From: Cardiobacteriaceae bacterium
Lineage (GTDB): Bacteria > Pseudomonadota > Gammaproteobacteria > Cardiobacteriales > Cardiobacteriaceae
Assembly: GCA_017934275.1 (NCBI GenBank)
Contig: JAGBJT010000060.1
Span: 1 to 31,498 of the forward strand
DNA: 31,498 nt
Direction: 5' to 3'
Shown here: positions 2,872 through 31,311 of the stretch, in pieces
Layout: every line of letters starts with the position of its first letter
Position numbering within the stretch: position 1 is the stretch's first letter
The notes under the pieces: model-generated
Told to the model about the DNA's origin: nothing
What the model saw: only the letters and a program-made list of their open reading frames with translations
The model's database searches: none
Program-made: the position numbers and the translations under genes

Positions 2872-2958
2872 AATTGCAAGAAGCAGAAAATAAAAACAGC
2901 GCGACTGAAAACTCAATCACGCTTTTTATCTAAAACTCAACAAAAATTAAAGTCTAAA

Positions 2959-3096
2959 TTAAACGGTTAAACGCTTGCGACCTTTTGCACGACGGCGATT
3001 TAATACTTCTCTTCCGTCAGCGGTTTGCATTCTGGCGCGGAAACCGTGAGTGCGTTTGCGTTTAATATTGCTCGGTTGGTAAGTGCGTTTTGACAT
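2959..3096 (-). CDS. rpmH: 50S ribosomal protein L34
   Basis: 45-aa [45 protein letters not shown], near-identical to canonical L34. The listed ORF is spuriously extended; the true start is the ATG whose complement is at 3094-3096. Confidence 0.95.
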
Positions 3097-3218
3097 TATT
3101 CTTCTCCGAAAAATAAAAGTTAAAAATTTAAGAATAAAAAACCGCCAAAAAACGGCGGACAAAAAGAAGTCGCGCATTGTAGCCGTGATAATTCGATTGT
3201 CAATATTTAGGAACAAAA

Positions 3219-3668: not shown

Positions 3669-3743
3669 TCGCTTTATTTCTCAAAAAAATAAAGGAAATG
3701 TAACTTCCACATTCCCTTTATTTAATTTCCGTTTTCGCTAATC

Positions 3744-4761: not shown

Positions 4762-5802
4762 TTATTCGGCAACTTTCGCTACATCTTGACTATTTTCAGC
4801 ATTGTTACGAGAACGAATTTGCGCGGTAATTTTTTCGATAAGCGATTTTTCCGCGGCACGGACGGCAAAAAATATTGCATTGGAATAAGAAAACGCATCA
4901 GCGCTACCGTGGCTTTTTACGACTAAACCGTTCAAACCCAACATCACCGCACCGTTATACAAACGAGGATCGATTTTTTTCTTCATCGTTTTCATTGCAG
5001 GGAGTGCAAATAATCCACAGATTTTGCTCAATAAATTCTGATGGAAAGCTTGTTTTAAGCTCAAAGCAATAAACTTCGCCGTCCCTTCAATGCTCTTCAA
5101 AGCCACATTACCAACAAAGCCGTCGCAGACCACAATATCAAGATTTTCTTTCATCAAAATATCGTCGCCTTCAACATTACCGATGTAATTTATCGGTGCT
5201 TCTGCCAGCAATTTACTCGCCTCTTTAACAACTTCATTACCCTTAATCGCTTCACCACCGATATTGAGCAATCCGACGGTAGGATTTTCCTTACCCACAA
5301 CCGCACGGACTAATTCCGTTCCCATTAGCGCAAATTGCTCTAATTGCTGCGGTTTGGAATCAACGGTTGCACCTAAATCTAAACAATAAACTCGTCCCGT
5401 TCTAGTTGGCATCGCCGTGCAAAGTGCAGGACGCGAAACATCAGGCAAAGTTTTGAGTAAAAAATAAGCACTCGCCATCAAAGCACCAGTATTACCAGCA
5501 CTTACGCAAACATCAGCTTTTTTATCGCGGACTAATTCAATAGCACGCCACAGCGATGAATCTTGTTTTTTACGCAGAACTTGCGAAGGGCTTTCGTCCA
5601 TCTCCACAACTTGCGAACATTGGACAATTTCGATATTTTCTGATTTAAGTTCGGAAAAATATTGATGAGAACGGATTTTTTCTTCATTGCCGCAAAGGAT
5701 AAATTTCACTTCTGGCAATTTTTTCTGGGCAATAGAAACGGCGGCGATGGTGGTATCTAATCCAATATCGCCGCCCATTGCATCAATAGCGATAGTTGTC
5801 AT
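4762..5802 (-). CDS. plsX: Phosphate acyltransferase PlsX
   Basis: 346 aa beginning MTTIAIDAMGGD…, the PlsX family signature. Located in the rpmF-plsX-fabH cluster. Confidence 0.9.
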   Translation of the reverse strand: MTTIAIDAMGGDIGLDTTIAAVSIAQKKLPEVKFILCGNEEKIRSHQYFSELKSENIEIVQCSQVVEMDESPSQVLRKKQDSSLWRAIELVRDKKADVCVSAGNTGALMASAYFLLKTLPDVSRPALCTAMPTRTGRVYCLDLGATVDSKPQQLEQFALMGTELVRAVVGKENPTVGLLNIGGEAIKGNEVVKEASKLLAEAPINYIGNVEGDDILMKENLDIVVCDGFVGNVALKSIEGTAKFIALSLKQAFHQNLLSKICGLFALPAMKTMKKKIDPRLYNGAVMLGLNGLVVKSHGSADAFSYSNAIFFAVRAAEKSLIEKITAQIRSRNNAENSQDVAKVAE

Positions 5803-5843
5803 TTTGATGAATAAGTATTTATGAACAAATTTGCGTTTAGAGC

Positions 5844-6047
5844 TTATTCGTTTTCATCAAAATCGATGGTTTGTTCTGGCTTAACAATCACTTGCTTACC
5901 ACGGTAGAAGCCGTCTTTGGTGATGTGATGACGAAGATGGCGTTCGCCAGAAGTTTTGTCGGTTGCAAGAGTTGCAAATCCGAGCGCATCGTGGCTACGG
6001 CGCATATCGCGTTTTGATGGAGTTTTACGATTTTGTTGAACTGCCAT
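5844..6047 (-). CDS. rpmF: 50S ribosomal protein L32
   Basis: [22 protein letters not shown]…[24 protein letters not shown] matches the L32 consensus. Confidence 0.9.
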
Positions 6048-6057
6048 TGTTTTTTCC

Positions 6058-6600
6058 TTATTTCAAAAGTTGTTTCAAAGCGGCAAAAGGATTTTCTTTT
6101 TCTTCTGCCAAATTATTCTTCTCTTTACCGAATGTTTGCGGCAGAGAGCAATTTTCGTGTTTAGCAATCATCGGCATTGCCAAAAGAATTTCTTCTTCAA
6201 TAAACCACAGTAAATCGATTTTTTCCGCTTGCTCACAAACTAAAAAATCTTCCACCGTTTCTGGGGCGTTTTCTGCTTGCTTTTCCGAGCGAAAAAGCGG
6301 TAAAGAAAACTCTTCTTCATACCGCCAAGCGAGATTTTCTAAACAACGCTGACATTGCAAATCAAGAACGGTATTGATTTGAAAGTTAATCTCAAAAAGC
6401 TCTTGACCCGCAAAGAAATTTTCATTTTTTTGACTTGCAAGCTCGATACTTAAAACGCCGTCCTGTGAAGCAAACTTACTCAATTCACGAGTATCCGTAA
6501 GAGCAACTTGGCAACTGATGATTTCGTTGTTTTTGCAAAATTGCCAAACATCGAAATTTTCTAGCTGTTCCTTACTAAACACACGACGGTTCATATTCAA
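6058..6600 (-). CDS. yceD: YceD / DUF177 family protein (large ribosomal subunit accumulation protein)
   Basis: 180 aa, acidic, with the CxxC…C pattern. Conserved location immediately upstream of rpmF-plsX. Confidence 0.75.
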
Positions 6601-6642
6601 GCATCATTCAAAAAGCGCGCGATTTTAGCAGCTTTACCTAAA

Positions 6643-7722
6643 TTAACCGTTGTGCATTTTTTCGATATGGAGATACACAAGGTCGGAAACCTCACGAATG
6701 ACATTGCCGCGGGATTTAATCCAAGAGCCGTAATTATCACAAGAACGGCTTTTCTCAATCACCGCCGCAAAGGAATACGGCTTGGCATATCCGTGTTTAT
6801 CAATAAATTCGACGATACCGAAATCGCCGCAACATTGCGAAGTTGAGCCAGTTTTGTCATAAATCGTCAGATTTTGCGGCACAAATTGCGTTCTAGTTGC
6901 TATGCGGTCGGGATTTTTAATGCTCATCAAAGATTTCAATAACTTCGACTGCGGCAATTTATCTCGCCATAAAGCCTGCATAAAGCGCGTGTAATCGCCG
7001 CAAGAGGCGCGGTTACGGTAAGTTTTTCCACCAGCGGGAATGCTTTCCACCACGATTGTGTTTCTAAAAATATCCCCTGCTTCACGGCGCAAAATACTCT
7101 GCACCGCATACGGTCCGCCAACACGGTCAATAATTTTGTTGGTCGATGTATTACTACTTTTAACAATCATCAGCCGCATTGTGTTGATGATGTCGTCGGT
7201 TATCGGGAACAATCCAGGATTACGGCGGTTTTGAAAAAAATAAGCCTGACAAACAAACGGCTTAATCATCGATGCCGCCTGCAAGGGAAGATGATGATTT
7301 ATATCTAGCAGATGCCGTCCCGAATTTATATCCACAACTTGCCAAGCGGTATGTTCATCTCTGGCGATGTGCCCGAGAGCGCGCTTTTGCCGAATTAGTT
7401 CGCTGATTTGATCATTTAAGTTACCGCTTGCGATAACGGGGCGGTTATAAGAATTCTGATATTGACTTTGCGAATTTGAATTAGCCTGACCGTAATTCGG
7501 TTCTACATAGGTTCGCTTAACTCCATAATCCGCATCGTATTGATAATTTCCGTTGGACGGCGCGGCAATCCGCACTTTGGCATCTGATGAAATACCGTTG
7601 TTACTCGTTGCGGGATAAGCATCGTCAATGCTTTCTAATTTAATCTCGGCGAGAGCCTGCAAAGTCGGAAAACTTCCCGCATAAAAAAGAGACCGCAAAA
7701 AGCGGCGTTTTGATAAATCCAT
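6643..7722 (-). CDS. Tat-signal, class A beta-lactamase-like / PBP-fold serine hydrolase (359 aa)
   Basis: N-terminal KRRFLRS twin-arginine motif. A Q/N/Y-rich ~100-aa low-complexity region follows. Then come the SxxK (SMIK) and KTG (YDKTGS) motifs and a candidate SxN, which are serine beta-lactamase/PBP fold motifs. The gene is directly downstream of ampD on the same strand. Confidence 0.5.
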   Translation of the reverse strand: MDLSKRRFLRSLFYAGSFPTLQALAEIKLESIDDAYPATSNNGISSDAKVRIAAPSNGNYQYDADYGVKRTYVEPNYGQANSNSQSQYQNSYNRPVIASGNLNDQISELIRQKRALGHIARDEHTAWQVVDINSGRHLLDINHHLPLQAASMIKPFVCQAYFFQNRRNPGLFPITDDIINTMRLMIVKSSNTSTNKIIDRVGGPYAVQSILRREAGDIFRNTIVVESIPAGGKTYRNRASCGDYTRFMQALWRDKLPQSKLLKSLMSIKNPDRIATRTQFVPQNLTIYDKTGSTSQCCGDFGIVEFIDKHGYAKPYSFAAVIEKSRSCDNYGSWIKSRGNVIREVSDLVYLHIEKMHNG

Positions 7723-18417: not shown

Positions 18418-20592
18418 ATGCGCACAATATATTTTTTAAGAGGTCTTCCTGCTTCTGGAAAAAGCTTTTGGGTTAAAGAAAATAATCTCACTCCTTACAC
18501 TATTAGTTCCGATGAAATACGCTTGATGTATGCCGCGCCAGTTATAGATAATGACGGTAATTACACTATTTCGCAAAAATATAACAAAAAAGTTTGGAAA
18601 CAATTATTCAGTCTTTTAGAAGAAAAAATGGGGCGCGGAGAGTTTATCATCGTCGATGCAACTCATTATCGTGATAGTGCTTTGAGGGAATATAAAAAGC
18701 TGATAAATCATTACCGTTATCGCGCTTTTATTGTTGATTTTACTGATGTTGCATTAGAAACAATTTTAGAACGAAATCAACAACGGGAAAGTTATAAAAT
18801 AGTGCCTGAAAAAACCATTTATAAAATGCACAATGTTTTACGGCAAAATAATAATGAAATATATCCGAAATTAAGTCCAAAAGATGCGCTAGAACAACTA
18901 AATAAATCTCTTATTTTCGATTTTAATCATTACGAAAAGGTTATAATTTTTGGGGATATTCACGGTTGTTTTACTCCTCTTAATCATTATTTTCAAGAAA
19001 ATCCATTCTCGGAAAATAATGCTTATATTTTTCTCGGTGATTATGTCGATCGCGGAATAGAACATCATAAAACATTCGAGCTTTTGCTATCTATTTATCA
19101 CTTAAAAAATGTATTAGTTTTAGAAGGTAATCACGAAAGATGGCTGCGCTTTTATGCCGAAGATGATGAGGCGAGCTTTGCCCGAATTAAATCCAAAACT
19201 TTTTTGGAAAAAACCGCGCCAGAACTTGAAAATCTAGATAAAAAGGATTTACGGCAATTTTGCCGCACGCTCGGTCAAATGGCTTATTTTTCATTTGCAG
19301 GAAAAGAATATTTCGCCTCACACGGTGGAGTTGGCTGTTTGCCGCATTTATTTATAAACACCCAGCAATATATAAACGGGGTTGGCAGCTATGAAGATAC
19401 CGAAAGTTTATATGACGCTTGGGAGAAAAATACCGCCGACAATTGCGTTTTAATTCACGGACATCGTAATACCGAAAATCTCCCCGCAAAAGTCCGAAGC
19501 CGTTGTTATAACTTATGCAGTGAAATTGAATACGGAGATAGTTTAAGAGTGCTAGAAATTTCACGCAAGAGGGAAGAAATTAAGCAATATCCAAATCCTA
19601 TTTATGACAAAAATTTACCGAAAAAGCCGCGAGTAATAAAGAATAATGCCATTTTAAGCGACAATGAATTACTTAATCAGCTTAATTTAAGCCCGTTAAT
19701 CATTAAAAAATCTTTTGATAACGGTATTATTTCTTACAATTTTTCCCGTGATGCCTTTTATAAAAAAGAATGGAATAACTTAACTTGCCGTGCAAGAGGG
19801 GTATTTATTTTTAATGACAGGGTAGTTTGTAGAAGTTATAACAAATTTTTCAATTGGTATGAAAGAAAAGAAACTAGTGATGAGGAATTAGAGAAAAATT
19901 TGCGTTTTCCCGTCCGTGCATACAGAAAGGAAAATGGCTTTCTAGCAATGGTTTCCGTCTTTAATAATGATTTTTTAGTGTGCAGCAAATCGACTATTTC
20001 TGGCACTTTTGTCGGATATATCAATAATGCCTTGGACAGATTATCAGAAGATACTAGAAAAGCTATTTTTAACCATTGCCAGAAAAATAATGTAACATTT
20101 GTTTTTGAATGCGTTGATATTAAAAACGACCCCCATATTGTGCAATATCAAAATAATCATTTATATTTATTAGACATCGTGCAAAATGATTTTGAATTTA
20201 AGAAAATTCCCTATGAAGAGTTAATAAAAATAGCCAAAGAATGTAATTTAGAACACAAGGAATTGGAAAAAGAGTTTAAGTCTTGGAACGAACTAAACAG
20301 CTATAAAAATAAACTAGAAGAGAGCTTAAATTTACAAAATAGAGGGTGGAGTGAAGGATTTGTTTTAGAAGATAAAAACGGCTTTATGCTTAAATATAAA
20401 AATCCCAATTACCGCCTATGGAAGCAATTGCGTTCAGTGCTAGAAAGATTGCAAATGGATAAACAAATAACGGTGAATAATTTTTCACAACAGGCACAAG
20501 AGGTAATCAAACTAATGCAGAACTTAAAAGCGGAAAATAAATTAAACCGCTTAAAAATTACCGACATTCAAAATATATATTGGAATTCATAA
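18418..20592 (+). CDS. Tri-domain polynucleotide kinase / lambda-type phosphatase / ligase-like nucleotidyltransferase (bacterial Pnkp-like RNA end-healing and sealing enzyme), 724 aa
   Basis: Residues 1-~160 are a P-loop 5'-OH polynucleotide kinase: GLPASGKSFW (compare T4 Pnk GCPGSGKSTW), Asp in SSDEIR, RNQQR lid (RxxxR). Residues ~175-370 are a binuclear metallophosphatase of the lambda-phosphatase/PPP type: GDIHGC, GDYVDRG, GNHE, HGG, GH motifs. Residues ~400-724 are a covalent-nucleotidyltransferase (RNA/DNA ligase superfamily)-like domain: motif I-like KENG (K504), motif IV EGFVLE (646-651), motif V LKYK (658-661). Markedly more AT-rich than the flanking genes. No hen1 adjacent. Confidence 0.6.
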   Translation: MRTIYFLRGLPASGKSFWVKENNLTPYTISSDEIRLMYAAPVIDNDGNYTISQKYNKKVWKQLFSLLEEKMGRGEFIIVDATHYRDSALREYKKLINHYRYRAFIVDFTDVALETILERNQQRESYKIVPEKTIYKMHNVLRQNNNEIYPKLSPKDALEQLNKSLIFDFNHYEKVIIFGDIHGCFTPLNHYFQENPFSENNAYIFLGDYVDRGIEHHKTFELLLSIYHLKNVLVLEGNHERWLRFYAEDDEASFARIKSKTFLEKTAPELENLDKKDLRQFCRTLGQMAYFSFAGKEYFASHGGVGCLPHLFINTQQYINGVGSYEDTESLYDAWEKNTADNCVLIHGHRNTENLPAKVRSRCYNLCSEIEYGDSLRVLEISRKREEIKQYPNPIYDKNLPKKPRVIKNNAILSDNELLNQLNLSPLIIKKSFDNGIISYNFSRDAFYKKEWNNLTCRARGVFIFNDRVVCRSYNKFFNWYERKETSDEELEKNLRFPVRAYRKENGFLAMVSVFNNDFLVCSKSTISGTFVGYINNALDRLSEDTRKAIFNHCQKNNVTFVFECVDIKNDPHIVQYQNNHLYLLDIVQNDFEFKKIPYEELIKIAKECNLEHKELEKEFKSWNELNSYKNKLEESLNLQNRGWSEGFVLEDKNGFMLKYKNPNYRLWKQLRSVLERLQMDKQITVNNFSQQAQEVIKLMQNLKAENKLNRLKITDIQNIYWNS

Positions 20593-21523: not shown

Positions 21524-22312
21524 TTATTTTTTCATTTCCAAAAAATCTTTAATCGATTTCATAGGTGCATTTTCAGCAGGCATTAAAACACGGTTGTAGC
21601 TTGGCGCACGCCCTACTCTTTCGGAAAAAAACTTATGAACTTGCAGATATTGATATGACATTAAAACGATACAAGGTAGTGAAATCGTAAGTGCAAGGAT
21701 ATTGATTTTTTTCGTATCTAGATAATGAATTAAAAACGCACGGTAGAAAATAATTAACACAAGAGCGGAAATAAATAAAGTAGCCATTTCCGTCCATAAA
21801 AAGCCCGTATAAAAGGCAAAATAATCACCAGCTAATTCAACTAGCGATGAAATTAAGGAAAAAAATGCCGTTATTCCCAACCAAGCCATAAGAGGTGGTT
21901 TTTTATTGCTAGTTTTATTCACAACAACCAAACTATTTGCAATCCAAACTAAACCAAAAATAATCAGCAAGCAGAAAAATAGCAATTTGTAATTCGGTAA
22001 ATATTGTTGAGCGGAACTCAAATAATCGTTATACATCGGATCTAATAAATACAAAATAAACCAAACCATTGCCATAAACGGTGAAGTAACCAAAAGCCAA
22101 AATACGCTTCTTTTTTTCTGGTTTGATGCAAAAGCTGATTTATTCATTTCAGTTGTTAATTGCAAGTTTTCCGCTAATTTATCCGAACGCTCTTGTTTTG
22201 TTTTTACCGCTTCTTTTTTCGCTTCCAGTTGATTTAATTTATTATTCAGATTTAAGTTGCTATTTAATTCCTTATTCGTTTTCTTTACCGTAGTATTTTT
22301 TCTTCTAGCCAT
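21524..22312 (-). CDS. Hypothetical polytopic membrane protein with a Lys-rich, coiled-coil-like cytoplasmic N-terminus (262 aa)
   Basis: ORF 16 bp upstream of ubiA on the same strand. ~70-aa charged N-terminal region (KK…NLNLNNKLNQLEAKKEAVKTKQERSDKL) followed by ~5-6 hydrophobic helices. No recognisable family. Confidence 0.45.
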   Translation of the reverse strand: MARRKNTTVKKTNKELNSNLNLNNKLNQLEAKKEAVKTKQERSDKLAENLQLTTEMNKSAFASNQKKRSVFWLLVTSPFMAMVWFILYLLDPMYNDYLSSAQQYLPNYKLLFFCLLIIFGLVWIANSLVVVNKTSNKKPPLMAWLGITAFFSLISSLVELAGDYFAFYTGFLWTEMATLFISALVLIIFYRAFLIHYLDTKKINILALTISLPCIVLMSYQYLQVHKFFSERVGRAPSYNRVLMPAENAPMKSIKDFLEMKK

Positions 22313-22348
22313 ATTTATTCCTCACAGTTTCTAATTAAAGTGCTATTT

Positions 22349-23821
22349 TTAATTGCGTTTAACTTGTTCTAATATTTTAGAAATTACCTTTTTACCCTTT
22401 TCAGTTTGTATTCCGTAAAGCTCAATTTGGATAACAAACCCCTCTTTTTTATGCGCAACAGATGCAGCTAAAAAGCGATGGTCGTCAATTGTTTCACCAT
22501 TAGAGGTAAATTTTCCAGGCTGACGGCAATAAACGGTTTTGAATGCTTCTCCTGCAATTTCAGTAAATCCTTCCTTGCATTTGTAGTTATCGTAATCGCG
22601 GCGTGGTCTTGCACTGTAGCCCATTTTGAATGCTTTGTTATACACACCGTAAAAATGCGCAGTAGTTATATCCTCCAAGGGATAAACATAGGCATAACTG
22701 TATCCAATTTGTCCGACAGATGTCTCATTATTGATAAAAGTCTGACGGTCATTAAAACAACGGACTTCGGCAACGGCAATCAAATCTTCCGCATCAGGAT
22801 TAGAAGAAGCGTCCCAACATTTGGTATCTTTGCTCATCGCAAGCGGCACGGTGTATTTGGCAATTTTGGTCGTTTGCCAATTTTTAGCGGCAAGCGGTTC
22901 TTTGAAATATTTATCATTGTCGGCAGAAAGCTGCTCGGCGATGCGTTTATTAACTTCATCTTGCTGAATTTTTTTATCACTAGCAAGTAATTTTTCAAGA
23001 TGTTCAACAGGAACAACAAAACTAATATTGCTTCCCGCCCGCAAATATGCAACATTCACACCGATAACTTTTCCGCGGTTATTCAAAGTCGGCCCTCCTG
23101 ACATACCGCTATTTAAGGAGCCAGAAAAAAGAATATGCGCCTGTGCCGATTTGCGCAAAAGACCGTTGTTTATCCCGTCGATAATCACAAAACCCAAATC
23201 GTGCGGATTACCGAGCGCAAACAAACTCTCTCCCTGCACCGATTTTTCTTCGAATTCAAATGGGGCACTTATTTTTTTATCCGCCTGCAAAATCGCCAAA
23301 TCATTGACGATATCAAAATCGAGCAAGGTCAAATTGCCCTGTTCATCATTTTGGTCGATATAACTTGCACGGTGTTTTTTCTTTTGTAATACATCTGACA
23401 CCACATGGTAATTTGTCGCGATTTTGTCGCCATTTGCAATCACAAATCCCGAACCGATAGCTGTTTTCTGCCCTGTTTCTTCGTTGTTAATTTGAATTTG
23501 CACCACCGAATTGCGGTAACGGGCAAAAAGTTCTTCGGCATTAAATTTCGCCGCTTCTTTCTTGGGAAATGGAAGTTTTTTTCCTGATTTAGCAAGCTGT
23601 TCTTGGATTTTATCGAGGGCTAAATCCTCTGTTTTTTCCGTATTTTTCGCCGTAACTTTTAAGTTGATTGCATCATTTTTTTCAATCGCCACGGATTGCA
23701 TATTGGAAACTTTTTCCGCCCGAACTTCATCAGCTTGAATTTCAGCATTTTCTAGCTCTTGCGTTGATGCAGTAGAAATAAAAAATATAAAAATCGTAAA
23801 AAAACAAATTATTTTTTTCAT
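22349..23821 (-). CDS. Secreted trypsin-like (S1 family) serine protease with an uncharacterised ~160-aa C-terminal domain (490 aa)
   Basis: Signal peptide MKKIICFFTIFIFFISTAS. Catalytic triad context TNYHVV (His), DLAILQ (Asp), GMSGGP (Ser). No PDZ detected. AT-rich. Confidence 0.65.
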   Translation of the reverse strand: MKKIICFFTIFIFFISTASTQELENAEIQADEVRAEKVSNMQSVAIEKNDAINLKVTAKNTEKTEDLALDKIQEQLAKSGKKLPFPKKEAAKFNAEELFARYRNSVVQIQINNEETGQKTAIGSGFVIANGDKIATNYHVVSDVLQKKKHRASYIDQNDEQGNLTLLDFDIVNDLAILQADKKISAPFEFEEKSVQGESLFALGNPHDLGFVIIDGINNGLLRKSAQAHILFSGSLNSGMSGGPTLNNRGKVIGVNVAYLRAGSNISFVVPVEHLEKLLASDKKIQQDEVNKRIAEQLSADNDKYFKEPLAAKNWQTTKIAKYTVPLAMSKDTKCWDASSNPDAEDLIAVAEVRCFNDRQTFINNETSVGQIGYSYAYVYPLEDITTAHFYGVYNKAFKMGYSARPRRDYDNYKCKEGFTEIAGEAFKTVYCRQPGKFTSNGETIDDHRFLAASVAHKKEGFVIQIELYGIQTEKGKKVISKILEQVKRN

Positions 23822-23910
23822 ATAAGCATCTCTTTATATTAAAAAAATTAAGACAAAGCAAACAGTATAGCCAAATATAGCGACACGAACTATCAGGCGG
23901 ACAAACTAAA

Positions 23911-23958
23911 AAAATAAAGCGGAGCTGAAAATCAATCTCCGCTTTATTTTTTTTATAT
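23911..23958. terminator. Bidirectional rho-independent terminator between the PepSY gene and the protease gene
   Basis: AAGCGGAG-N12-CTCCGCTT hairpin followed by TATTTTTTTT on plus, and T-rich on minus as well. Confidence 0.65.
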
Positions 23959-23977
23959 AAACACAACTGTTTTAAGA

Positions 23978-24478
23978 TTATTTTTCCTCTGGCTTATCTA
24001 ATTTTTTACCATCTTCGGCAGAAAAAATCAGGTTTTGTTCCTGACCATCTTTTTCTACCGTTACTGAATAGAAAGGTTTTACTGCTTTTGCAGGCGCATC
24101 TTTTTGTCTATCACCACCCATTCCACGACCTCCTCTTCCCATTCCGCCCATTTGCGCCATATAGGATATTGCAACTACTTTACCTTCTTTTTCAGCTTGG
24201 GCAATTGCATCTTTAATAGAAAATTTCGGCGCAGAAAATGGCTCTGGCTTTGGTTCTGGCATTTTTTCACCAGTTTCAGCATCAAGCAATATCATCTTGC
24301 GCTCGCCGTCATCACTAATTACCATCACACGGTAAGCATCTTTGCCGTCTTGCTTCATCAGGCGAACAAAAGTTACATTTCCCTCGCTTTGTGCTTTGTC
24401 TACCGCTTCGGATAGACTGATGGCTTGTGCTTGTGTTACAAATAATAAGCTTGTGATAATTAAGGATATTTTTTTCAT
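23978..24478 (-). CDS. Secreted PepSY-domain protein (two PepSY repeats)
   Basis: Signal peptide MKKISLIITSLLFVTQAQA. Two ~60-aa units ending in the D-A-x-T-G-type motif (ISLSEAVDKAQSE…LLDAETGEKM; FSIKDAIAQAEKEG…FSAEDGKKL). Gly/Arg/Met-rich linker. Confidence 0.65.
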   Translation of the reverse strand: MKKISLIITSLLFVTQAQAISLSEAVDKAQSEGNVTFVRLMKQDGKDAYRVMVISDDGERKMILLDAETGEKMPEPKPEPFSAPKFSIKDAIAQAEKEGKVVAISYMAQMGGMGRGGRGMGGDRQKDAPAKAVKPFYSVTVEKDGQEQNLIFSAEDGKKLDKPEEK

Positions 24479-24562
24479 AAAGATTTGTTCTCATTAAAAA
24501 CCGCGAAATTACGGCGGACTAATTTTAGCGCATAAATGATAAATATTCTTAATTCCGTATTG

Positions 24563-25342
24563 CTAAAAACTCCGTCCGCCACCGCCGTGTGTATTTCCAC
24601 TCGATGAACTATGCGTGGAACTTCCGCCGCTTCCACCACCAGAACTAGAAGATGGCAATTCTCTATAAAACACTTTGCGGTCAATAACTTCATCATCGAA
24701 AGGCATAAAGTTGTGATTTGCGGTATTTTTCCAAATAGGCGGAATATTGCGTTGTTTTAATTTATAACTCTTTTTATTTCTAAAATAAGCCAAAATCATA
24801 GCTATTAAACCTGCCAAACCGCCCCCTGCTGCATCTTCTGGACTTATAGAATTACCTGAAATATAAAATTCAAGTTTTTTTACATAAGCATTCAGTGCAT
24901 CATCATATGAAGCGTTTTTTCTATACTCTTCTACAAATTTGTCAAGTAAATCACTAATTTTTATATCAGTTAAAGTTGCAATTGTATTAGTCCCCGATGT
25001 AGAAGTATGCACTTTACGCTCCCCAGTCATATCGGCAAGTGCAATTAAAATCAGGCTACCTTCAACATTTTGCCCCTGTTTGTAGTTGAGTAGTTCATCA
25101 AGATAATCATCGGCGGCATCTTTGGCTGTTTTATTAGTTGCATTTACCGTATAAATAACCGAATAGGAACCTGTTTTTTCTGAAATTTTTTCCAGTTTTG
25201 CGGACAATTTTATTTTTGTATCGGTTGATAAAAGTCCAGCATTATCAAAAACATATTCTCGACAAAAAGAATTTGCGGTAAAAATAAAAAATATTCCTAC
25301 TATTGCAGTTATTTTTTTGCACCATTTAATCCAATTTACCAT
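24563..25342 (-). CDS. TPM-domain (TLP18.3/Psb32/MOLO-1; YgcG/YdjH-like) membrane protein with a Gly/Ser-rich C-terminal tail
   Basis: N-terminal signal-anchor. YVFDNAGLLS…LILIALADMTGERKVHTSTSG matches the TPM phosphatase-domain pattern. A TM helix (GGLAGLIAMILAYF) follows, then the SSSSGGGSGGSS…GGGGRSF tail. Start taken at the third Met (GGAGG RBS 9 nt upstream); 25348 and 25360 are also possible. Confidence 0.65.
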   Translation of the reverse strand: MVNWIKWCKKITAIVGIFFIFTANSFCREYVFDNAGLLSTDTKIKLSAKLEKISEKTGSYSVIYTVNATNKTAKDAADDYLDELLNYKQGQNVEGSLILIALADMTGERKVHTSTSGTNTIATLTDIKISDLLDKFVEEYRKNASYDDALNAYVKKLEFYISGNSISPEDAAGGGLAGLIAMILAYFRNKKSYKLKQRNIPPIWKNTANHNFMPFDDEVIDRKVFYRELPSSSSGGGSGGSSTHSSSSGNTHGGGGRSF

Positions 25343-26394
25343 AACCATTGTCCTCCGCATAATGCTAAAATCAAGACAATTATTCCAAATACTGCTGAAT
25401 AAGCAAAAGCTTTTTTCTGTGATAGCGGTAATTCGCCATTTGCAAGTCCAGTTTGACCGTTAATCGCAAATTGATAAGTTTTTCCCTGATAGTTGTAATT
25501 CAAAATATACGTCGGAAGTAATACATATCTCGTATCAGTAATTGCAAATTTTGAATTATCAATTTCATCGGTAAATCTTTGGCAATTTGCCGATTTCTTG
25601 ATTTCGTTGATTGTAAAGATTGCCGCCTCTTTTAGTGCTTGTTTTTCCGCCTCTTCTTTATCTAAATTATGCCTCTCCGATTGAAATCCAGCAATATATG
25701 CACTCTTAAATTCAACCTGTTCGCTATCTTCAAACGGGTTTATAGAATTGATTAAATTACGGTCAATCTTGTCAAAAGATAAACTACGAATATTATTAAA
25801 TTGAGATTTTCCTTGCCGTTTTATCGCTAATTTCAGCACTTCTACTTCTTCTTGATTATTCAGTCTTCTGCGGTTTTCACGAATACCTGTTGCTTGAAAA
25901 TCTACTTTTGCCTCAACATCGCAATCCCAATACGGTAAATACATTCCGATAATTTTATCCTGTTGCTTCTTTACCGTAAAATCATTAGGCAATAATTTTT
26001 TACCTCTTATCCATTTTTCAAAACACTCCATCGCCTGTTTTTGCGTAATTTTGAATGGAATAATTCGATGCGGTAAAAAGCCCCCCTTTAAGCGATTTTC
26101 AATAATTACAGGACTATGGCAGTAGTAACAAAATAAAGCCGTGGTTGTATCACCACAAACTACTTCCGCACCGCAATTCGGACAATTATATTGCCGTATT
26201 TCAGAACCATCATCTATTCTATCGTCGGAATATTTACTTTTTTCTTCAATTTGCTCTTCATGTTTGGCAATAAAGGCTTCCAACTCTTCTTCGGTAGATG
26301 AGCGACCGCAATATTCACACTTAAATCCCTGAATTTGCGGGTTATAAGAAAGCGGCGCACTACAACCAGGACATTTGTAATTATCTACTGCCAT
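25336..26394 (-). CDS. Double zinc-ribbon protein with a C-terminal TM helix (YdjG-like), 352 aa
   Basis: N-terminal CPGCSAPL…CEYCG and NCPNCGAEV…CYYCH zinc-ribbon pairs. Central uncharacterised domain. C-terminal hydrophobic helix AFAYSAVFGIIVLILALCGG. Stop abuts the TPM gene start. Confidence 0.55.
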   Translation of the reverse strand: MAVDNYKCPGCSAPLSYNPQIQGFKCEYCGRSSTEEELEAFIAKHEEQIEEKSKYSDDRIDDGSEIRQYNCPNCGAEVVCGDTTTALFCYYCHSPVIIENRLKGGFLPHRIIPFKITQKQAMECFEKWIRGKKLLPNDFTVKKQQDKIIGMYLPYWDCDVEAKVDFQATGIRENRRRLNNQEEVEVLKLAIKRQGKSQFNNIRSLSFDKIDRNLINSINPFEDSEQVEFKSAYIAGFQSERHNLDKEEAEKQALKEAAIFTINEIKKSANCQRFTDEIDNSKFAITDTRYVLLPTYILNYNYQGKTYQFAINGQTGLANGELPLSQKKAFAYSAVFGIIVLILALCGGQWLW

Positions 26395-26397
26395 TTT

Positions 26398-26640
26398 TCA
26401 TTCCTCGATTTGAAGATTTTGAATATATTCATTCGGTTCTCCTTGCCAAGATTGACAAGAAATTTCAACGGGATTAAAGCTGTTGTCGAACTTAATATCT
26501 TCCCAAGTTGATATATTTTTTAATTCCATTGGCAATATTTTTTCCACAATAATTGAGGCATATTCTTTTGCGTTGCCGTTTTCATCTAATTCTGCACTCA
26601 AACCTCTACTCACCGTATATGAAAAGCGATTATTTATCAT
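26398..26640 (-). CDS. Hypothetical small acidic protein (80 aa)
   Basis: ORF 3 nt upstream of the ZnR gene, with a 4-nt overlap with the preceding 88-aa ORF (operon-like coupling). No motifs. Confidence 0.4.
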   Translation of the reverse strand: MINNRFSYTVSRGLSAELDENGNAKEYASIIVEKILPMELKNISTWEDIKFDNSFNPVEISCQSWQGEPNEYIQNLQIEE

Positions 26641-26903
26641 TCGGACGGAATTATAAGGCTTGCCATGCTTTGTTTTTCCACCTGTGCAATATCCTGATAA
26701 AAAGCAAGTTCAGGCGGTTTATTTTCATATCCAAAACTATATTCAAGCTGATTTTCAACCTGCCTTAAAGTTAAAACTTTGTTGTTTGTAGTTTTACAAG
26801 TAAATACATCTTTAATGTAATAAGCTTTAGCTTCACTGTTTGCATTATTTATCAACAGCATTTGCAGTAAAATTGCAAATAAAACGGCAACATTTTTTCT
26901 CAT
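26637..26903 (-). CDS. Hypothetical small secreted protein (88 aa) with a signal peptide
   Basis: MRKNVAVLFAILLQMLLINNANSEA signal peptide. AAGGTG RBS. Translationally coupled to the 80-aa ORF. Confidence 0.45.
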   Translation of the reverse strand: MRKNVAVLFAILLQMLLINNANSEAKAYYIKDVFTCKTTNNKVLTLRQVENQLEYSFGYENKPPELAFYQDIAQVEKQSMASLIIPSE

Positions 26904-26914
26904 CTCTTCACCTT

Positions 26915-26950
26915 AAAAAAATAACCTGTTCCATCTCTAAAACAGGTTAT
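26915..26950 (-). terminator. Rho-independent terminator or attenuator immediately after the SPFH gene
   Basis: Perfect 10-bp stem ATAACCTGTT/AACAGGTTAT with a 10-nt loop. Followed, on the minus-strand transcript, by UUUUUU. The SPFH stop codon is at 26967-26969. Confidence 0.7.
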
Positions 26951-26966
26951 TTCGCTAAAAAAACAA

Positions 26967-28256
26967 TTACACCGCTTGACCGCAATTACCGCAAAATTTT
27001 GCCCCCTGTGGCAATTTTTCATTGCAATTTGTGCAAGTTTTTTCCGCCTCAACCTTTGTGCCGCATTCACCGCAAAATTTGGCGTTTGCTGCAAGCTCTG
27101 CTCCGCAATTTGCACATTTTGCTGCCTGCGGTTTTTGGCTACCACAAGATGAACAGAATTTACCCGTTACCGTTGCACCGCAAGTACACAACCATTGATT
27201 TTGAGCGTTTTGATTTTGTGCTGCTGGCATCGCGGACTGTGCTTGTTGCTGCTGCATTTGCGCCATATTGACTTGCGAAGCATTCTGCATAAATCCGCCT
27301 GCTGCCTGCATTCCCAAGCCCATTCCCATAAACGCGCCCATTGGACCGCCACCGCCTTCGTTTGAACCAGCATTTTCGAAACCGCGCGCAATTGAAGTTT
27401 GCACATATGTTTCGCGCAAATTCGGATCGGAAAGCATTGCCGCTTTGTTTCTTTCGTTGATGAGATTTTTGCTTTCTTCGTCGTAGGAAATACTAGAAAT
27501 ACCGACCGCTTGCACTTCAAAACCGCGCATTTTTTTCCAATCATCATCCAAAGTGTCCTGCATAAATTTGGACAATTCCCGACCTTTGCTCGGCAAAAAC
27601 GAAATTCTTATTCCTTCCGCTGACATTTGATTTACAACTGCTTGCAGAGCTTCTAAAAATTCGTTCAAATATTGCTGATTGATGTCGTCGATATGGACTT
27701 TTGCGGTATTTCTAGGAATTGCTTCTTGGAAGAATAAAATCGGATCGGTAACCTTGATTGAATAAGTTCCGAATGTTCTTAAAAATAATTCTGAGTTATA
27801 AAATAAGTCAAAATATTGCAGAGGATTTGGCGTTCCGAATTTAATTCCTTTTATTTCCTGCAAATTGATGTAATAGACTTCTTGCTTACCTGACGGTGTG
27901 CCCGAAAACTTAAATCTATTCCAAGCATCCTTTAATGAGTCCTTAAATTGACCATTAAATATACTCGGTGCGGAATTATTAGAGACCTTGAAATATCCAG
28001 GTTCAGCTGAATAATCCACAATTTTTCCACCATCAACCAGCATCATAAATTGGTTCTGATTAACATAAATAATCGAACCGTCGGTGATTAAATCGGAAGA
28101 ACCTTTGCGGTTGGTGTTGCGTTTTTCACCGCGGCGCACCTGCTCACCCTTGCACATCACAACGCCTTCTTGCATTTCGGTCGCTTCGATAACATCAAGC
28201 CATTGATCGGCAAGAGTTCCACCTATTGCACCTGCAGCAGCTGAAAGTAAGCCCAT
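26967..28256 (-). CDS. SPFH/band-7 (flotillin-like; 'virion core protein'-type, YdjI-like) protein with a Q/N/M/G-rich linker and three C-terminal zinc ribbons (429 aa)
   Basis: N-terminal MGLLSAAAGAIGGTLADQWLDV…, typical of this SPFH subfamily. Low-complexity region GGGGPMGAFMGMGLGMQAAGG…QMQQQQAQ. Three CxxC-N~10-CxxC units (CTCG…CSSCG; CANCG…CGECG; CTNCN…CGNCG). Start at the internal Met with an AGGAG RBS. Confidence 0.65.
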   Translation of the reverse strand: MGLLSAAAGAIGGTLADQWLDVIEATEMQEGVVMCKGEQVRRGEKRNTNRKGSSDLITDGSIIYVNQNQFMMLVDGGKIVDYSAEPGYFKVSNNSAPSIFNGQFKDSLKDAWNRFKFSGTPSGKQEVYYINLQEIKGIKFGTPNPLQYFDLFYNSELFLRTFGTYSIKVTDPILFFQEAIPRNTAKVHIDDINQQYLNEFLEALQAVVNQMSAEGIRISFLPSKGRELSKFMQDTLDDDWKKMRGFEVQAVGISSISYDEESKNLINERNKAAMLSDPNLRETYVQTSIARGFENAGSNEGGGGPMGAFMGMGLGMQAAGGFMQNASQVNMAQMQQQQAQSAMPAAQNQNAQNQWLCTCGATVTGKFCSSCGSQKPQAAKCANCGAELAANAKFCGECGTKVEAEKTCTNCNEKLPQGAKFCGNCGQAV

Positions 28257-28302
28257 AAATATCTCCTTAAAATATAAACCAACAGAACTAATTAGATACA
28301 AA

Positions 28303-28335
28303 AAAACCGCCCGTTTTGAGGCGGTTTTTCAATCA
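28303..28335 (-). terminator. Bidirectional rho-independent terminator downstream of lpdA
   Basis: AAACCGCC-CGTTTTGA-GGCGGTTT hairpin with flanking T/A tracts. Confidence 0.7.
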
Positions 28336-28339: not shown

Positions 28340-29779
<1,440 letters not shown>

Positions 29780-30015: not shown

Positions 30016-31311
30016 ATGAAACGCTTGATTTTTCAACAACTTCTGGATTGGAAAAACAACCCAAATCGCAAACCTTTAATCATTCAAGGAGCACGGCAAG
30101 TCGGTAAAACTTGGCTGATGAAAGAATTCGGCAGGCAACATTATCAAAAGACAGCTTATATTAGTTTTACCGATAGCCCAGAAGCGGCGCAGATTTTCGA
30201 CGGAAATTATGATTTAGACCGTATTTTGTTGCACTTAAAAATTTTCAGCAATACGGAAATTCAAGCCGATGACACTTTGATTGTTTTGGATGAAATTCAA
30301 GAATGCGAAAGAGCCTTGAATTCTCTGAAATTTTTTAATGAAAATGCCAAAAATTATCACATCATCGCGGCTGGCAGTTTGTTGGGAGTTGCGGTTAGAA
30401 AAAAACAATACTCTTTTCCTGTTGGACAAGTGGATTTTTTGAATTTATATCCCCTAAATTTCAAGGAATTTTTAACTGCTATCGGTGAAGAAAAATTATC
30501 CCATTTGTTGCTACATAAAGATTGGCAAAGTATAAAAATATTCCATCAAAAATATATCAATTTATTAAAACAATATATGTTTATTGGCGGTATGCCCGAA
30601 GCGGTGCAATCCTTTGTGGATTTTCAAGATTTCAATAAAGTCCGAAGCATACAAAATAATATCTTGATTGGATACAGAGAAGATTTTTCTAAATACACGG
30701 AAGCAAAAAATATTCCAAAAATAATGGCAGTTTGGAATTCATTACCTGCGCAATTGTCCAAAGAAAATAAAAAATTTACTTATCAACAAATTCAAAAAGG
30801 GGCAAGAGCAAGAGAATATGAAAACGCAATAGAGTGGTTAGTTTTAACGGGACTAGTGCATAAAATAAATCGGATTAGCAAACCAAATTTACCCTTATTG
30901 TCCTATCAAGATAATAATTTCAAGTTATATTTATTGGATACGGGATTGTTATCGGCATTGTCAATGCTCGATGCTCAAACAATTATCAACGGCGATAAAA
31001 TTTTTTCGGAATTCAAAGGAGCTTTAACCGAGCAATTTGTTTTGCAAGAATTAAAAAATAATCCATATATGCCAATTACTTATTGGGCGGCAGAAAACGC
31101 AATGGCAGAAGTTGATTTTGTCATTCAATATAAGCAACAAGTTATTCCAATAGAAGTTAAATCAGCACTTAATTTAAGAGCCAAGAGCCTTGCTTCTTAC
31201 CGCAGTAAATATCAGCCAGAGATTGCAATTCGCAGTTCGCTTGCCAACTTTGAAATCAACCAAGATTTGCACAATATTCCTTTATACGCTATCGGCGATA
31301 TTTGCAATTAA
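30016..31311 (+). CDS. AAA-family ATPase, DUF4143 (AAA_14) type (431 aa)
   Basis: Walker A GARQVGKTW, Walker B LIVLDEIQ, and a C-terminal DUF4143-like region typical of this widespread accessory ATPase family. AT-rich relative to lpdA. Confidence 0.7.
   Translation: MKRLIFQQLLDWKNNPNRKPLIIQGARQVGKTWLMKEFGRQHYQKTAYISFTDSPEAAQIFDGNYDLDRILLHLKIFSNTEIQADDTLIVLDEIQECERALNSLKFFNENAKNYHIIAAGSLLGVAVRKKQYSFPVGQVDFLNLYPLNFKEFLTAIGEEKLSHLLLHKDWQSIKIFHQKYINLLKQYMFIGGMPEAVQSFVDFQDFNKVRSIQNNILIGYREDFSKYTEAKNIPKIMAVWNSLPAQLSKENKKFTYQQIQKGARAREYENAIEWLVLTGLVHKINRISKPNLPLLSYQDNNFKLYLLDTGLLSALSMLDAQTIINGDKIFSEFKGALTEQFVLQELKNNPYMPITYWAAENAMAEVDFVIQYKQQVIPIEVKSALNLRAKSLASYRSKYQPEIAIRSSLANFEINQDLHNIPLYAIGDICN

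What the first reader, a model, noticed from the sequence alone, without database searches (positions are those of the whole stretch)
24563..28256. PspA-less YdjGHI-like membrane module: SPFH (with triple zinc ribbon), two small proteins, double-zinc-ribbon TM protein and TPM-domain protein
The gene set is a band-7/SPFH protein, a zinc-ribbon protein and a TPM-domain protein. It mirrors the B. subtilis ydjG (Zn-ribbon) / ydjH (TPM) / ydjI (SPFH) operon that accompanies pspA (ydjF) in envelope-stress responses. Here the order is different (SPFH first). There is no pspA. Two extra small ORFs (one secreted, one acidic cytoplasmic) are translationally coupled in the middle. The SPFH protein has acquired a Q/N/M/G-rich low-complexity linker and three C-terminal zinc ribbons. 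This looks like an uncharacterised membrane-scaffold/stress or membrane-remodelling system in a Gram-negative background. SPFH-centred modules are also recurrent in phage-defence neighbourhoods.
Basis: partly seen in the sequence, partly recalled or inferred. Interest (0 to 1): 0.7.

Follow-up and report, generated by a model that had tools for sequence, protein, structure and literature searches.

The report
PspA-less YdjI-YdjG-YdjH membrane scaffold cassette
This is a three-gene membrane-scaffold cassette (a soluble SPFH protein plus two membrane anchors) related to the Bacillus subtilis ydjGHI genes, apparently acquired by a gut/rumen Cardiobacteriaceae bacterium from the Bacillota/Treponema gene pool; it belongs to a widespread, little-studied cassette family, and the two small ORFs inside it are probably a broken unrelated gene.

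Summary
On the minus strand of 24563-28256 lie an SPFH protein (PF13421, low-complexity linker, three zinc ribbons), two small ORFs, a tail-anchored double-zinc-ribbon protein, and a TPM protein. No pspA lies in the 31.5-kb window.

The YdjGHI assignment passes direct tests against a B. subtilis-type pspA-ydjGHI locus fetched with published primer sequences:
- G vs YdjG: 28% identity over the full length, E=3e-49.
- TPM profile vs YdjH: probability 99.7%, E=2.7e-26.
- SPFH vs YdjI: E=1e-9, same Pfam family and architecture.

The SPFH-first, PspA-less order is the common form of this subfamily. Of 80 genome loci anchored on the G protein, 79/79 with room have TPM directly downstream, 54 have SPFH directly upstream, and 0 have PspA within 8 kb.

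The low-complexity linker and zinc ribbons are ancestral, not acquired. The two small ORFs are a lineage-specific ~480-bp insertion. They are absent from a sister species and from all other cassettes, and they look like two halves of one frameshifted ~168-aa secreted-protein gene.

Trees place the cassette inside the Bacillota/Treponema clade, which suggests horizontal transfer.

Verdict: new member of a known but poorly characterised kind. Interest is modest.

The parts
28300..28325 (-). Intrinsic terminator of the upstream lpdA gene (CCGCC-loop-GGCGG followed by T7). It marks the upstream boundary of the module's transcription unit.
   Evidence: Sequence read. The lpdA ORF is 28340-29755.
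28257..28301 (-). Short upstream region with the RBS AAGGAGA and, read by eye, TTGTAT-N19-TATATT. The module's own promoter is presumed to lie here (inferred, weak).
   Evidence: sequence. The consensus scan did not call a promoter here, so this is inference only.
26967..28256 (-). YdjI-like soluble SPFH protein, 429 aa: conserved Gly-rich N-terminus, PF13421 SPFH core with long helices, G/M/Q/N-rich linker, three C-terminal zinc ribbons.
26915..26953 (-). Stable hairpin followed by a U-run, immediately after the SPFH stop codon. Probably a partial terminator or attenuator that sets SPFH in excess over the two anchors.
   Evidence: RNAfold dG -17.7 kcal/mol, z=-6.4. The same element occurs in the sister species with a compensatory A-U to G-C change. 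An unrelated strong hairpin sits at the same place in L011. Terminator-like hairpins recur after SPFH in a subset of other cassettes.
26397..26914 (-). Lineage-specific insertion of 518 nt, replacing 36 nt in the sister species. It carries small ORF1 (26637-26903, 88 aa, signal-like N-terminus) and small ORF2 (26398-26640, 80 aa, acidic). Probably one frameshifted gene for a ~168-aa secreted protein, not a component of the module.
   Evidence: Indel boundaries from blastn. Gene calls with and without the ORFs. ORF1 matches the N-halves of 153-168-aa proteins. ORF2 matches the C-half of P0242. Collinear alignment. No Pfam, NCBIfam, PHROG or PADLOC hit. The full-length homologue P0242 lies beside metG, not beside an SPFH cassette.
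26422..26449 (-). Best sigma-70-like match in the region (TTGGCA-16-TATATT, 10/12). It lies inside small ORF2, about 28 nt upstream of the G start codon, and could be an internal promoter for G-H carried by the insertion.
   Evidence: This is a consensus match only, and the region as a whole has fewer promoter-like sites than shuffled sequence.
25336..26394 (-). YdjG-like protein, 352 aa: two N-terminal zinc ribbons, a helical linker, an alpha/beta domain, and a C-terminal tail-anchor TM (residues 329-347).
24563..25342 (-). YdjH-like TPM protein, 259 aa: N-terminal signal/anchor (residues 11-27), extracytoplasmic TPM domain, TM (171-187), and a cytoplasmic tail ending in the conserved SSTHxSSSGxxHGGGGRSF motif. 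Its start overlaps the G stop by 7 nt.
   Evidence: PF04536 E=2e-17. Profile of 26 cassette TPM proteins vs YdjH: hhalign probability 99.7%, E=2.7e-26. Conserved tail. TM segments. The 7-nt overlap appears in 5 of 6 gene-called cassettes.
24500..24515 (-). Weak terminator-like hairpin plus T-run between the TPM stop and the next gene (PepSY). Possible end of the transcription unit.
   Evidence: pattern match. Folding the whole spacer gives no significant stability, so this is weak evidence.

Best explanation
The locus is a three-gene YdjI-YdjG-YdjH cassette, in the order SPFH, then tail-anchored double-zinc-ribbon protein, then TPM protein. It belongs to the type common in Bacillota and Treponema, and it sits in the chromosome of a gut/rumen Cardiobacteriaceae bacterium (Gammaproteobacteria), where it most likely arrived by horizontal transfer.

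Proposed mechanism:
- The SPFH protein has no membrane segment. It is held at the cytoplasmic face of the inner membrane by the two co-translated anchors.
- G is almost entirely cytoplasmic and is tail-anchored.
- H exposes only its TPM domain to the periplasm and carries a conserved Gly/Ser-rich cytoplasmic tail.
- Once tethered, the SPFH protein oligomerises through its long helices into a ring or cage, as HflK/C, flotillin and stomatin do. This assembly organises or fluidises a membrane patch during envelope stress.
- The hairpin with U-run after the SPFH gene probably lets most transcripts stop there. That would give an excess of scaffold over anchors.
- PspA is not part of the cassette. 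If the cell has one elsewhere it may be recruited, but the conservation pattern suggests the cassette can work without it.
- The two small ORFs are a later insertion of a now-split unrelated gene.

What is shown: homology of all three proteins to YdjI/G/H, topology features, the SPFH fold, neighbourhood conservation, absence of pspA nearby, and the insertion. What is inferred: tethering, oligomerisation, the stress role, attenuation, and the direction of transfer.
For: Homology to YdjG, YdjH and YdjI. The reference locus was fetched with the primer sequence from PMC8581546.

In B. subtilis, YdjI is soluble and needs YdjG and YdjH for membrane foci, YdjG and YdjH interact, and loss of YdjI alters membrane fluidity (PMC8581546).

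Topology: SPFH has no TM, G has one C-terminal TM, and H has two hydrophobic segments flanking the TPM domain.

Cassette conservation: TPM follows G in 79/79 loci with room; SPFH precedes G in 54/80; the order is G-H-I in 2; PspA is present in 0/80 within 8 kb. Six further gene-called contexts agree. The G stop and H start overlap in all six.

Hairpin.

Horizontal origin: the G and SPFH trees are congruent. They nest the window with T. pedis inside the Bacillota clade, far from the native proteobacterial SPFH-G pairs, which share only 23-25% identity and have no TPM. The flanks are housekeeping genes.
Against: - There is no experimental evidence for any I-G-H cassette that lacks pspA. All functional knowledge comes from the distant B. 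subtilis operon (21-28% identity).
- The genome outside the window could encode PspA. That could not be checked.
- The SPFH model is only moderately confident (mean pLDDT 68), and no oligomer was modelled.
- 18 of the 80 loci have G-H with no SPFH within 8 kb, so G-H may have a role of its own.
- If the post-SPFH hairpin is an efficient terminator, G-H would need a separate promoter. Only a consensus match supports one.
- The trees are rough neighbour-joining trees on few taxa.
Confidence: 0.6

Rival explanations
1. The cassette is an accessory arm of a Psp response, as in B. subtilis. Its job would be to recruit a PspA/IM30 protein encoded elsewhere in the genome to damaged membrane, and it would have no function without PspA.
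For: In B. subtilis, PspA foci depend on YdjI, YdjG and YdjH, and YdjH and YdjI bind PspA in two-hybrid assays (PMC8581546; PMC9239133). Ravi et al. describe TPM and band-7 proteins as conserved PspA partners in Firmicutes (PMC11237479).
Against: None of the 80 genome loci, the 12 other contexts or the window has pspA within 8-10 kb, while the positive controls were found. The window's SPFH is only 21% identical to YdjI and belongs to a separate, very conserved subfamily with an extra N-terminal segment. Whether Cardiobacteriaceae encode PspA at all could not be tested.
Confidence: 0.2
2. The cassette is an anti-phage or abortive-infection module built around an SPFH protein.
For: The B. subtilis pspA-ydjGHI operon is reported to be induced by phage SPP1, and PspA is a conjugation target of a CBASS cyclase (PMC11153139). 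A distant SPFH-G pair on a Vibrio plasmid lies next to TIR-domain and TRAF-binding-domain genes.
Against: None of the five proteins hits a PADLOC model. PHROG hits are only to zinc-ribbon or lipoprotein fragments. Neighbours differ in every taxon and are housekeeping genes here. The cassette has no recognisable effector such as a nuclease, NADase or pore. The 'phage' records that carry the cassette are flagged UNVERIFIED and are unannotated.
Confidence: 0.07
3. The SPFH cassette regulates the periplasmic trypsin-like protease and the PepSY protein encoded just downstream. This would parallel HflK/C-FtsH or stomatin-NfeD pairs and would make the functional unit five to six genes long.
Against: These genes are absent next to the cassette in Treponema, Tissierellaceae, L011, L012 and the sampled Bacillota. 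Spacers of 84 nt and 156 nt and a terminator-like site separate them from the cassette. The protease is secreted, whereas the SPFH protein is cytoplasmic.
Confidence: 0.08

Closest known systems
Bacillus subtilis pspA-ydjG-ydjH-ydjI operon (sigma-W regulon; Scholz et al. 2021, PMC8581546; domain analysis in Ravi et al. 2024, PMC11237479)
   Same: The same three protein families with the same architectures. The SPFH protein has PF13421, a low-complexity linker and C-terminal zinc ribbon(s), and no TM. The G protein has two zinc ribbons, an alpha/beta domain and a C-terminal TM. The H protein has a signal/anchor, a TPM domain, a TM and a Gly/Ser-rich tail ending in RSF/GSF. G and H are translationally coupled.
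   Different: There is no pspA. The gene order is I-G-H rather than G-H-I. Sequence identity is only 21-28%. The SPFH protein has an extra conserved N-terminal ~50 aa and three ribbons instead of one. A hairpin with U-run and an inserted split gene lie between I and G. The host is a diderm gammaproteobacterium, so the TPM domain would face the periplasm.
I-G-H cassettes of Clostridia, Tissierellia, Enterococcus, Lactococcus and Treponema (databases annotate the SPFH protein as 'SPFH domain-containing', 'virion core protein' or 'Membrane protease subunit, stomatin/prohibitin family, contains C-terminal Zn-ribbon domain')
   Same: The same order, the same G/H overlap and no pspA. SPFH is 54-68% identical and G is 30-45% identical. 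The window locus is a member of this group.
   Different: The host phylum differs. The I-G spacer is 572 nt and holds a hairpin and an insertion, whereas the median spacer in this group is 33 nt.
Proteobacterial SPFH-G pairs on Vibrio, Paracoccus and Comamonas plasmids/chromids
   Same: An SPFH gene is directly followed by a YdjG-like gene (zinc ribbons plus TM) in Gram-negative hosts.
   Different: No TPM gene is present. Identity to the window proteins is only 18-24%. These pairs form a separate clade in both trees.
Cage-forming SPFH complexes: HflK/C-FtsH, QmcA-YbbJ, flotillin, stomatin, prohibitin
   Different: Those proteins anchor themselves through their own TM segment or hairpin, and most face the periplasm or partner with a protease or NfeD. 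This one is soluble and cytoplasmic, depends on separate anchors and carries zinc ribbons. A PDB sequence search found no match.

Membership tests
YdjI-type SPFH protein (Pfam PF13421 Band_7_1 with C-terminal zinc ribbon) | PF13421 SPFH domain | tested here: met
   E=1.3e-17, 64.6 bits against a cutoff of 24. B. subtilis-type YdjI hits the same family.
YdjI-type SPFH protein (Pfam PF13421 Band_7_1 with C-terminal zinc ribbon) | No membrane segment (soluble, needs partners) | tested here: met
   Maximum Kyte-Doolittle 19-residue score is 0.93, so no TM segment. Dependence on partners for localisation cannot be tested here.
YdjI-type SPFH protein (Pfam PF13421 Band_7_1 with C-terminal zinc ribbon) | Low-complexity linker followed by C-terminal zinc ribbon(s) | tested here: met
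   G/M/Q/N-rich segment followed by three ribbons. Relatives have two (77/120) or three (43/120). YdjI has one.
YdjI-type SPFH protein (Pfam PF13421 Band_7_1 with C-terminal zinc ribbon) | Direct sequence similarity to B. subtilis YdjI | tested here: met
   BLASTP E=1e-9, 21% identity over 333 aa. Homologous but distant, in a different subfamily.
YdjG family | Two N-terminal zinc ribbons | tested here: met
   C8/C11/C26/C29 and C71/C74/C89/C92 are invariant in 44 sequences.
YdjG family | Central domain related to YpeB (NTF2/PepSY-like), as stated by Ravi et al. 2024 | tested here: inconclusive
YdjG family | Single C-terminal TM segment | tested here: met
   Residues 329-347, score 2.41.
YdjG family | Full-length similarity to B. 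subtilis YdjG | tested here: met
   28% identity over residues 5-345, E=3e-49.
YdjH family (membrane TPM protein) | TPM domain (PF04536) between an N-terminal signal/anchor and a TM segment | tested here: met
   PF04536 E=2e-17 over residues 37-164. Hydrophobic segments at 11-27 and 171-187.
YdjH family (membrane TPM protein) | Low-complexity Gly/Ser-rich C-terminal tail | tested here: met
   SSSSGGGSGGSSTHSSSSGNTHGGGGRSF. The motif is conserved in 26 cassette partners. YdjH ends in ...GSRGSF.
YdjH family (membrane TPM protein) | Profile-level similarity to B. subtilis YdjH | tested here: met
   hhalign probability 99.7%, E=2.7e-26 over 202 columns. Pairwise BLASTP alone gives only E=7e-4.
Psp (phage shock) operon of the B. 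subtilis pspA-ydjGHI type | pspA (PF04012) encoded in the operon | tested here: not met
   No PspA in the window or in 92 related loci. The controls L093, L094 and L095 were found.
Psp (phage shock) operon of the B. subtilis pspA-ydjGHI type | Gene order G-H-I | tested here: not met
   The order here is I-G-H.
Psp (phage shock) operon of the B. subtilis pspA-ydjGHI type | PspA encoded elsewhere in the genome and recruited by the cassette | not testable with these tools
Known anti-phage defence systems (PADLOC) | Match of any component to a defence-system model | tested here: not met
   No hit at E<=0.01 for the five proteins.
SPFH-protease/NfeD pairs (HflKC-FtsH, QmcA-YbbJ) | Conserved adjacent NfeD or protease partner | tested here: not met
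   The downstream trypsin-like protease is seen only in the two Cardiobacteriaceae species, not in other cassette contexts.

The most novel reading that the evidence does not exclude
The I-G-H cassette is an autonomous, PspA-independent membrane-maintenance system. Its invariant core is the co-translated G-H anchor pair: a tail-anchored double-zinc-ribbon protein plus a TPM protein with a conserved GGGGRxF tail. This pair docks a cage-forming soluble SPFH protein. The cassette moves as a unit between phyla, including from monoderm donors into diderm Gammaproteobacteria, where the TPM domain would read out the periplasm. On this view, the linkage to PspA in B. subtilis is a secondary, lineage-specific addition rather than the ancestral logic.
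Probability: 0.3. Interest if true: 0.5.

Novelty: new member of a known kind. Interest (0 to 1): 0.3.

Why it matters
YdjGHI is known only from B. subtilis, where it is read as an accessory of PspA. This locus and the census around it point the other way. In the most conserved subfamily the SPFH-G-H trio travels without pspA and crosses phylum boundaries. If so, the trio is probably a self-sufficient membrane-scaffold unit.

That gives a concrete, testable hypothesis for a very widespread uncharacterised SPFH subfamily (more than 7,600 detected relatives). Tractable hosts such as Enterococcus, Lactococcus and Treponema carry the cassette and could be used to test it.

For this particular genome the finding is annotation-level. 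It is a correctly recognised but ordinary member of that family, with a decayed passenger gene inside.

Tried and rejected
- A word-indexed homology search with the two small ORFs concatenated returned nothing. The exhaustive representative search with ORF1 then found three weak relatives.
- tblastn of those relatives against the insertion reported only the ORF1 half. The ORF2 half rests on BLASTP at E=4e-4 and on the collinear alignment.
- The afdb50 fold library was unavailable, so YdjG could not be recovered by structure.
- The PDB sequence search with the SPFH protein was empty.
- PADLOC and PHROGs gave nothing useful for the five proteins. NCBIfam gave no family-level name.
- The promoter scan found fewer sites than shuffled sequence and none upstream of the SPFH gene. 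The terminator scan missed the post-SPFH hairpin because its scanned loop limit is 8 nt.
- 'Phage' hits to the SPFH protein turned out to be UNVERIFIED, unannotated records. At least one of them carries the whole I-G-H cassette, so they were not used as evidence of phage carriage.
The census therefore describes the subfamily nearest the window, not all YdjG homologues.
- I considered that the small ORFs were module components, for example a secreted ligand plus a cytoplasmic adaptor. I rejected this because they are absent from the sister species and from all 90 other cassettes examined.
- I considered that the frameshift was an assembly error. I rejected this because the locus shown stood for seven near-identical places (six not shown), two assemblies from different sources (ENA and Logan) are 100% identical to the window across the region, and no homopolymer lies at the junction.

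Full report
**1. What is in the sequence**

Five ORFs lie head to tail on the minus strand of 24563-28256.

- The first (26967-28256, 429 aa) matches Pfam PF13421 Band_7_1 (E=1.3e-17) and several zinc-ribbon models. Its start at 28256 is fixed by an AAGGAGA ribosome-binding site and by alignment of the N-terminus MGLLSAAAGAIGG with homologues. It has no hydrophobic segment. Its tail is a G/M/Q/N-rich stretch followed by three CxxC...CxxC ribbons.
- Two small ORFs follow: 88 aa with a signal-like N-terminus, and 80 aa and acidic. They overlap by ATGA.
- The fourth gene (25336-26394, 352 aa) has two zinc ribbons and one C-terminal TM segment.
- The fifth (24563-25342, or 24563-25360) is a TPM-domain protein (PF04536, E=2e-17). 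Its start overlaps the stop of the fourth gene by 7 nt.

The rest of the window holds housekeeping genes: yidC, rnpA, dtd, fabH, plsX, argH, hemC, ackA, pta, hisIE, tatABC, gshA, ubiA and lpdA. The organism is an uncultured Cardiobacteriaceae bacterium. The G protein is 100% identical to a protein from such a MAG, and the SPFH protein is 97% identical to one from a second MAG.

**2. Test of the YdjGHI assignment**

Scholz et al. (PMC8581546) print the cloning primers for pspA, ydjG, ydjH and ydjI. An exact search with 24 nt of the ydjG primer fetched two metagenome contigs. One of them (L095) encodes proteins whose ends match all the published primers:
- PspA (PF04012)
- a 341-aa protein starting MIISYKCPNC and ending MGGGF
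- a 254-aa TPM protein starting MRGFFG and ending SRGSF
- a 323-aa PF13421 protein ending GQKLV

Against these references:
- The window's G protein is 28% identical over its whole length (E=3e-49).
- The SPFH protein aligns over 333 residues including linker and ribbon (21% identity, E=1e-9).
- The TPM protein is weak pairwise (E=7e-4). A profile built from 26 cassette TPM partners matches YdjH at 99.7% probability, E=2.7e-26, across the TPM domain, the TM and the juxtamembrane region.

The architectures also fit the description by Ravi et al. (PMC11237479): band-7 plus C-terminal ribbon; two ribbons plus an uncharacterised domain plus a TM; TPM plus a low-complexity tail. All three 'YdjX-like' labels pass.

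**3. Is the trio a conserved neighbourhood, and is PspA really missing?**

Six independent look-ups of SPFH or G homologues all showed SPFH, then a ~345-aa protein, then TPM, with no PspA_IM30 in 8-10 kb. The contexts were Treponema pedis, a Tissierellaceae bacterium, two Cardiobacteriaceae species, an unnamed proteobacterial contig L011, and L012.

A scan of one genome per species, anchored on the G protein, returned the 80 best loci. Nearly all are Bacillota (Clostridia, Enterococcus, Lactococcus, Bacillus sp., Robertmurraya), plus one Treponema. Iterated profile searches on all ORFs of these loci gave:
- a TPM gene directly after G in 79 of the 79 loci with room
- SPFH directly before G in 54
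- the B. subtilis order G-H-I in 2
- G-H without SPFH in 24, of which 6 are cut off upstream

jackhmmer seeded with E. coli PspA (taken from MG1655) and with the B. subtilis-type PspA recovered each other and nothing else, in 92 loci and in the window.

So the SPFH-first, PspA-less arrangement is the common form in the subfamily nearest the window. It is not a peculiarity of this locus.

**4.

The linker and ribbons are family traits. YdjI has them (PMC8581546). One source names a relative 'Membrane protease subunit, stomatin/prohibitin family, contains C-terminal Zn-ribbon domain'. Of the 120 nearest relatives, 77 have two ribbons and 43 have three.

What does distinguish this subfamily from YdjI is a very high conservation (54-68% identity between phyla) and a conserved extra N-terminal segment.

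**5. The two small ORFs**

A sister species with ~90% nucleotide identity has the same synteny from lpdA to ubiA, but only 88 nt between SPFH and G. Window 26397-26914 (518 nt) replaces 36 nt there. No other cassette has these ORFs.

An exhaustive search with ORF1 found, apart from itself, three proteins of 153-168 aa that match through their N-terminal halves. ORF1 aligns to residues 25-75 of the best one, P0242 (E=2e-12). ORF2 aligns to its residues 90-155 (E=4e-4; MINNRFSYTV against MINNLYVYEI, NPVEISC against NSVEIKC). The concatenated ORFs align collinearly at 36% identity.

The simplest reading is one gene for a ~168-aa secreted, Cys-containing protein of unknown family (no Pfam hit). 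It was inserted here and then split by a small out-of-frame deletion. The full-length relative sits beside metG, not beside an SPFH cassette.

The split looks real. The locus shown stood for seven near-identical places (six not shown), and assemblies from two different sources (ENA and Logan) are 100% identical to the window over this stretch.

The same slot holds an unrelated 486-aa leucine-rich-repeat gene in L011 and two other ORFs in Otoolea muris. The SPFH|G junction is therefore a recurrent insertion point, whereas the median spacer is 33 nt.

**6. Transcription signals**

lpdA ends in a clear intrinsic terminator. Only ~45 nt separate it from the SPFH ribosome-binding site.

Directly after the SPFH stop there is a stable hairpin followed by a U-run (dG -17.7 kcal/mol, z=-6.4). 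The sister species keeps it through a compensatory A-U to G-C change, and L011 has a different strong hairpin at the same place. Similar elements follow SPFH in several Bacillota cassettes that have longer spacers. I read this as partial termination that gives more scaffold than anchor. This is inference.

The best sigma-70-like match of the region lies inside ORF2, just upstream of G. It is no more than a lead.

**7. Structures and topology**

Charge distribution and hydrophobic segments place SPFH and nearly all of G in the cytoplasm. They place the TPM domain outside the inner membrane and the conserved ~70-residue tail of H (...SSTHxSSSGxxHGGGGRxF) inside.

**8. Origin**

Native proteobacterial relatives of G exist on Vibrio, Paracoccus and Comamonas replicons. 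They are only 23-25% identical, they are paired with SPFH, and they lack a TPM gene.

In neighbour-joining trees of G and of SPFH, the window, its sister species, L011 and Treponema pedis form one clade. L011 is a proteobacterium, judged from rpoC at 69% nucleotide identity to E. coli. This clade nests within the Bacillota I-G-H cassettes and lies far from both the proteobacterial pairs and the B. subtilis operon. The two trees agree. Given the housekeeping flanks, this points to an old horizontal acquisition of the whole cassette. The trees are rough and the donor is not resolved.

**9. Mechanism and rivals**

Best-supported model (confidence about 0.6): a tethered cytoplasmic SPFH cage. G and H are made in equal amounts through overlapping reading frames. 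Together they dock the soluble SPFH protein at the inner membrane. The TPM domain is the only part that can sense the periplasm. The assembly changes local membrane order or supports repair under envelope stress, as reported for YdjI in B. subtilis.

Rivals:
- An obligate PspA-recruiting accessory (0.2). The genome outside the window could not be tested.
- A defence module (0.07). There is no PADLOC hit, no effector and no island context.
- A regulator of the downstream PepSY/trypsin-like protease genes (0.08). That linkage is confined to Cardiobacteriaceae.

**10. Verdict**

It is a new member of a known, poorly characterised kind, and the form it takes is the widespread one.

The useful by-products are:
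- evidence that the trio is usually PspA-free and moves between phyla
- the invariant G-H core with a conserved tail motif
- the demonstration that the 'two small proteins' are a decayed passenger gene

Interest: 0.3.

Noticed in passing
window 18418-20592 (+): A 724-aa protein that combines a P-loop kinase domain (AAA_33), a calcineurin-like phosphoesterase domain and a T4-type RNA ligase domain. This is a Pnkp-like RNA repair enzyme. It is conserved in both Cardiobacteriaceae species, and no Hen1-like partner was noted next to it.
   Followed up: no
L011 11342-12802; L071 7345-7982; window 26397-26914: The spacer between the SPFH and G genes is a recurrent insertion point. It holds a 486-aa leucine-rich-repeat protein in a proteobacterial contig, two ORFs (138 and 74 aa) in Otoolea muris, and the split small gene in the window. 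The median spacer in 54 cassettes is 33 nt.
   Followed up: partly
L096 (Vibrio coralliilyticus plasmid) 1-4019 and 4906-7059: A distant SPFH-G pair without a TPM gene lies next to divergently oriented genes annotated as TIR-domain and TRAFs-binding-domain proteins. This neighbourhood looks defence-like. It is a single instance.
   Followed up: no
alignment A3 (TPM partners of 26 cassettes), C-terminus; window 24563-24620: The cytoplasmic tail of the TPM partner ends in a strongly conserved motif, S-S/T-T-H-x-S-S-S-G-x-x-H-G-G-G-G-R-x-F. It is conserved across Bacillota, Treponema and the window, and is a candidate docking site for the SPFH protein.
   Followed up: partly
L012 376-2265: One relative (P0002, 629 aa) carries two PF13421 SPFH domains in one polypeptide and is still followed by G and TPM genes.
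   Followed up: no
window 21524-24478 (-): Three genes downstream on the same strand: a PepSY protein (166 aa), a secreted trypsin/HtrA-like protease without PDZ hits (490 aa), and a 262-aa multi-TM protein with no family. The protease domain matches the protease part of the PADLOC 'RT-Protease_XI' models (E=8e-18). That is a domain-level similarity only. The cluster is conserved in the sister species.
   Followed up: partly
L099 (OR846590.1) and other INPHARED hits: Several 'phage' records that carry the SPFH gene are flagged UNVERIFIED or UNVERIFIED_ORG and are unannotated. The 138-kb 'Enterococcus phage' record contains the complete I-G-H cassette and may be host DNA.
   Followed up: partly
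window 30016-31311 (+): An AAA_14 + DUF4143 ATPase gene lies divergent from lpdA. It is also present at the same place in the sister species.
   Followed up: no
18 of the 80 genome loci, e.g. L022, L025, L087, L090: G-TPM pairs occur with no SPFH gene within 8 kb on either side. In some of them the TPM protein has a ~50-residue insertion after the signal sequence. This suggests the anchor pair has a role independent of the SPFH scaffold.
   Followed up: no
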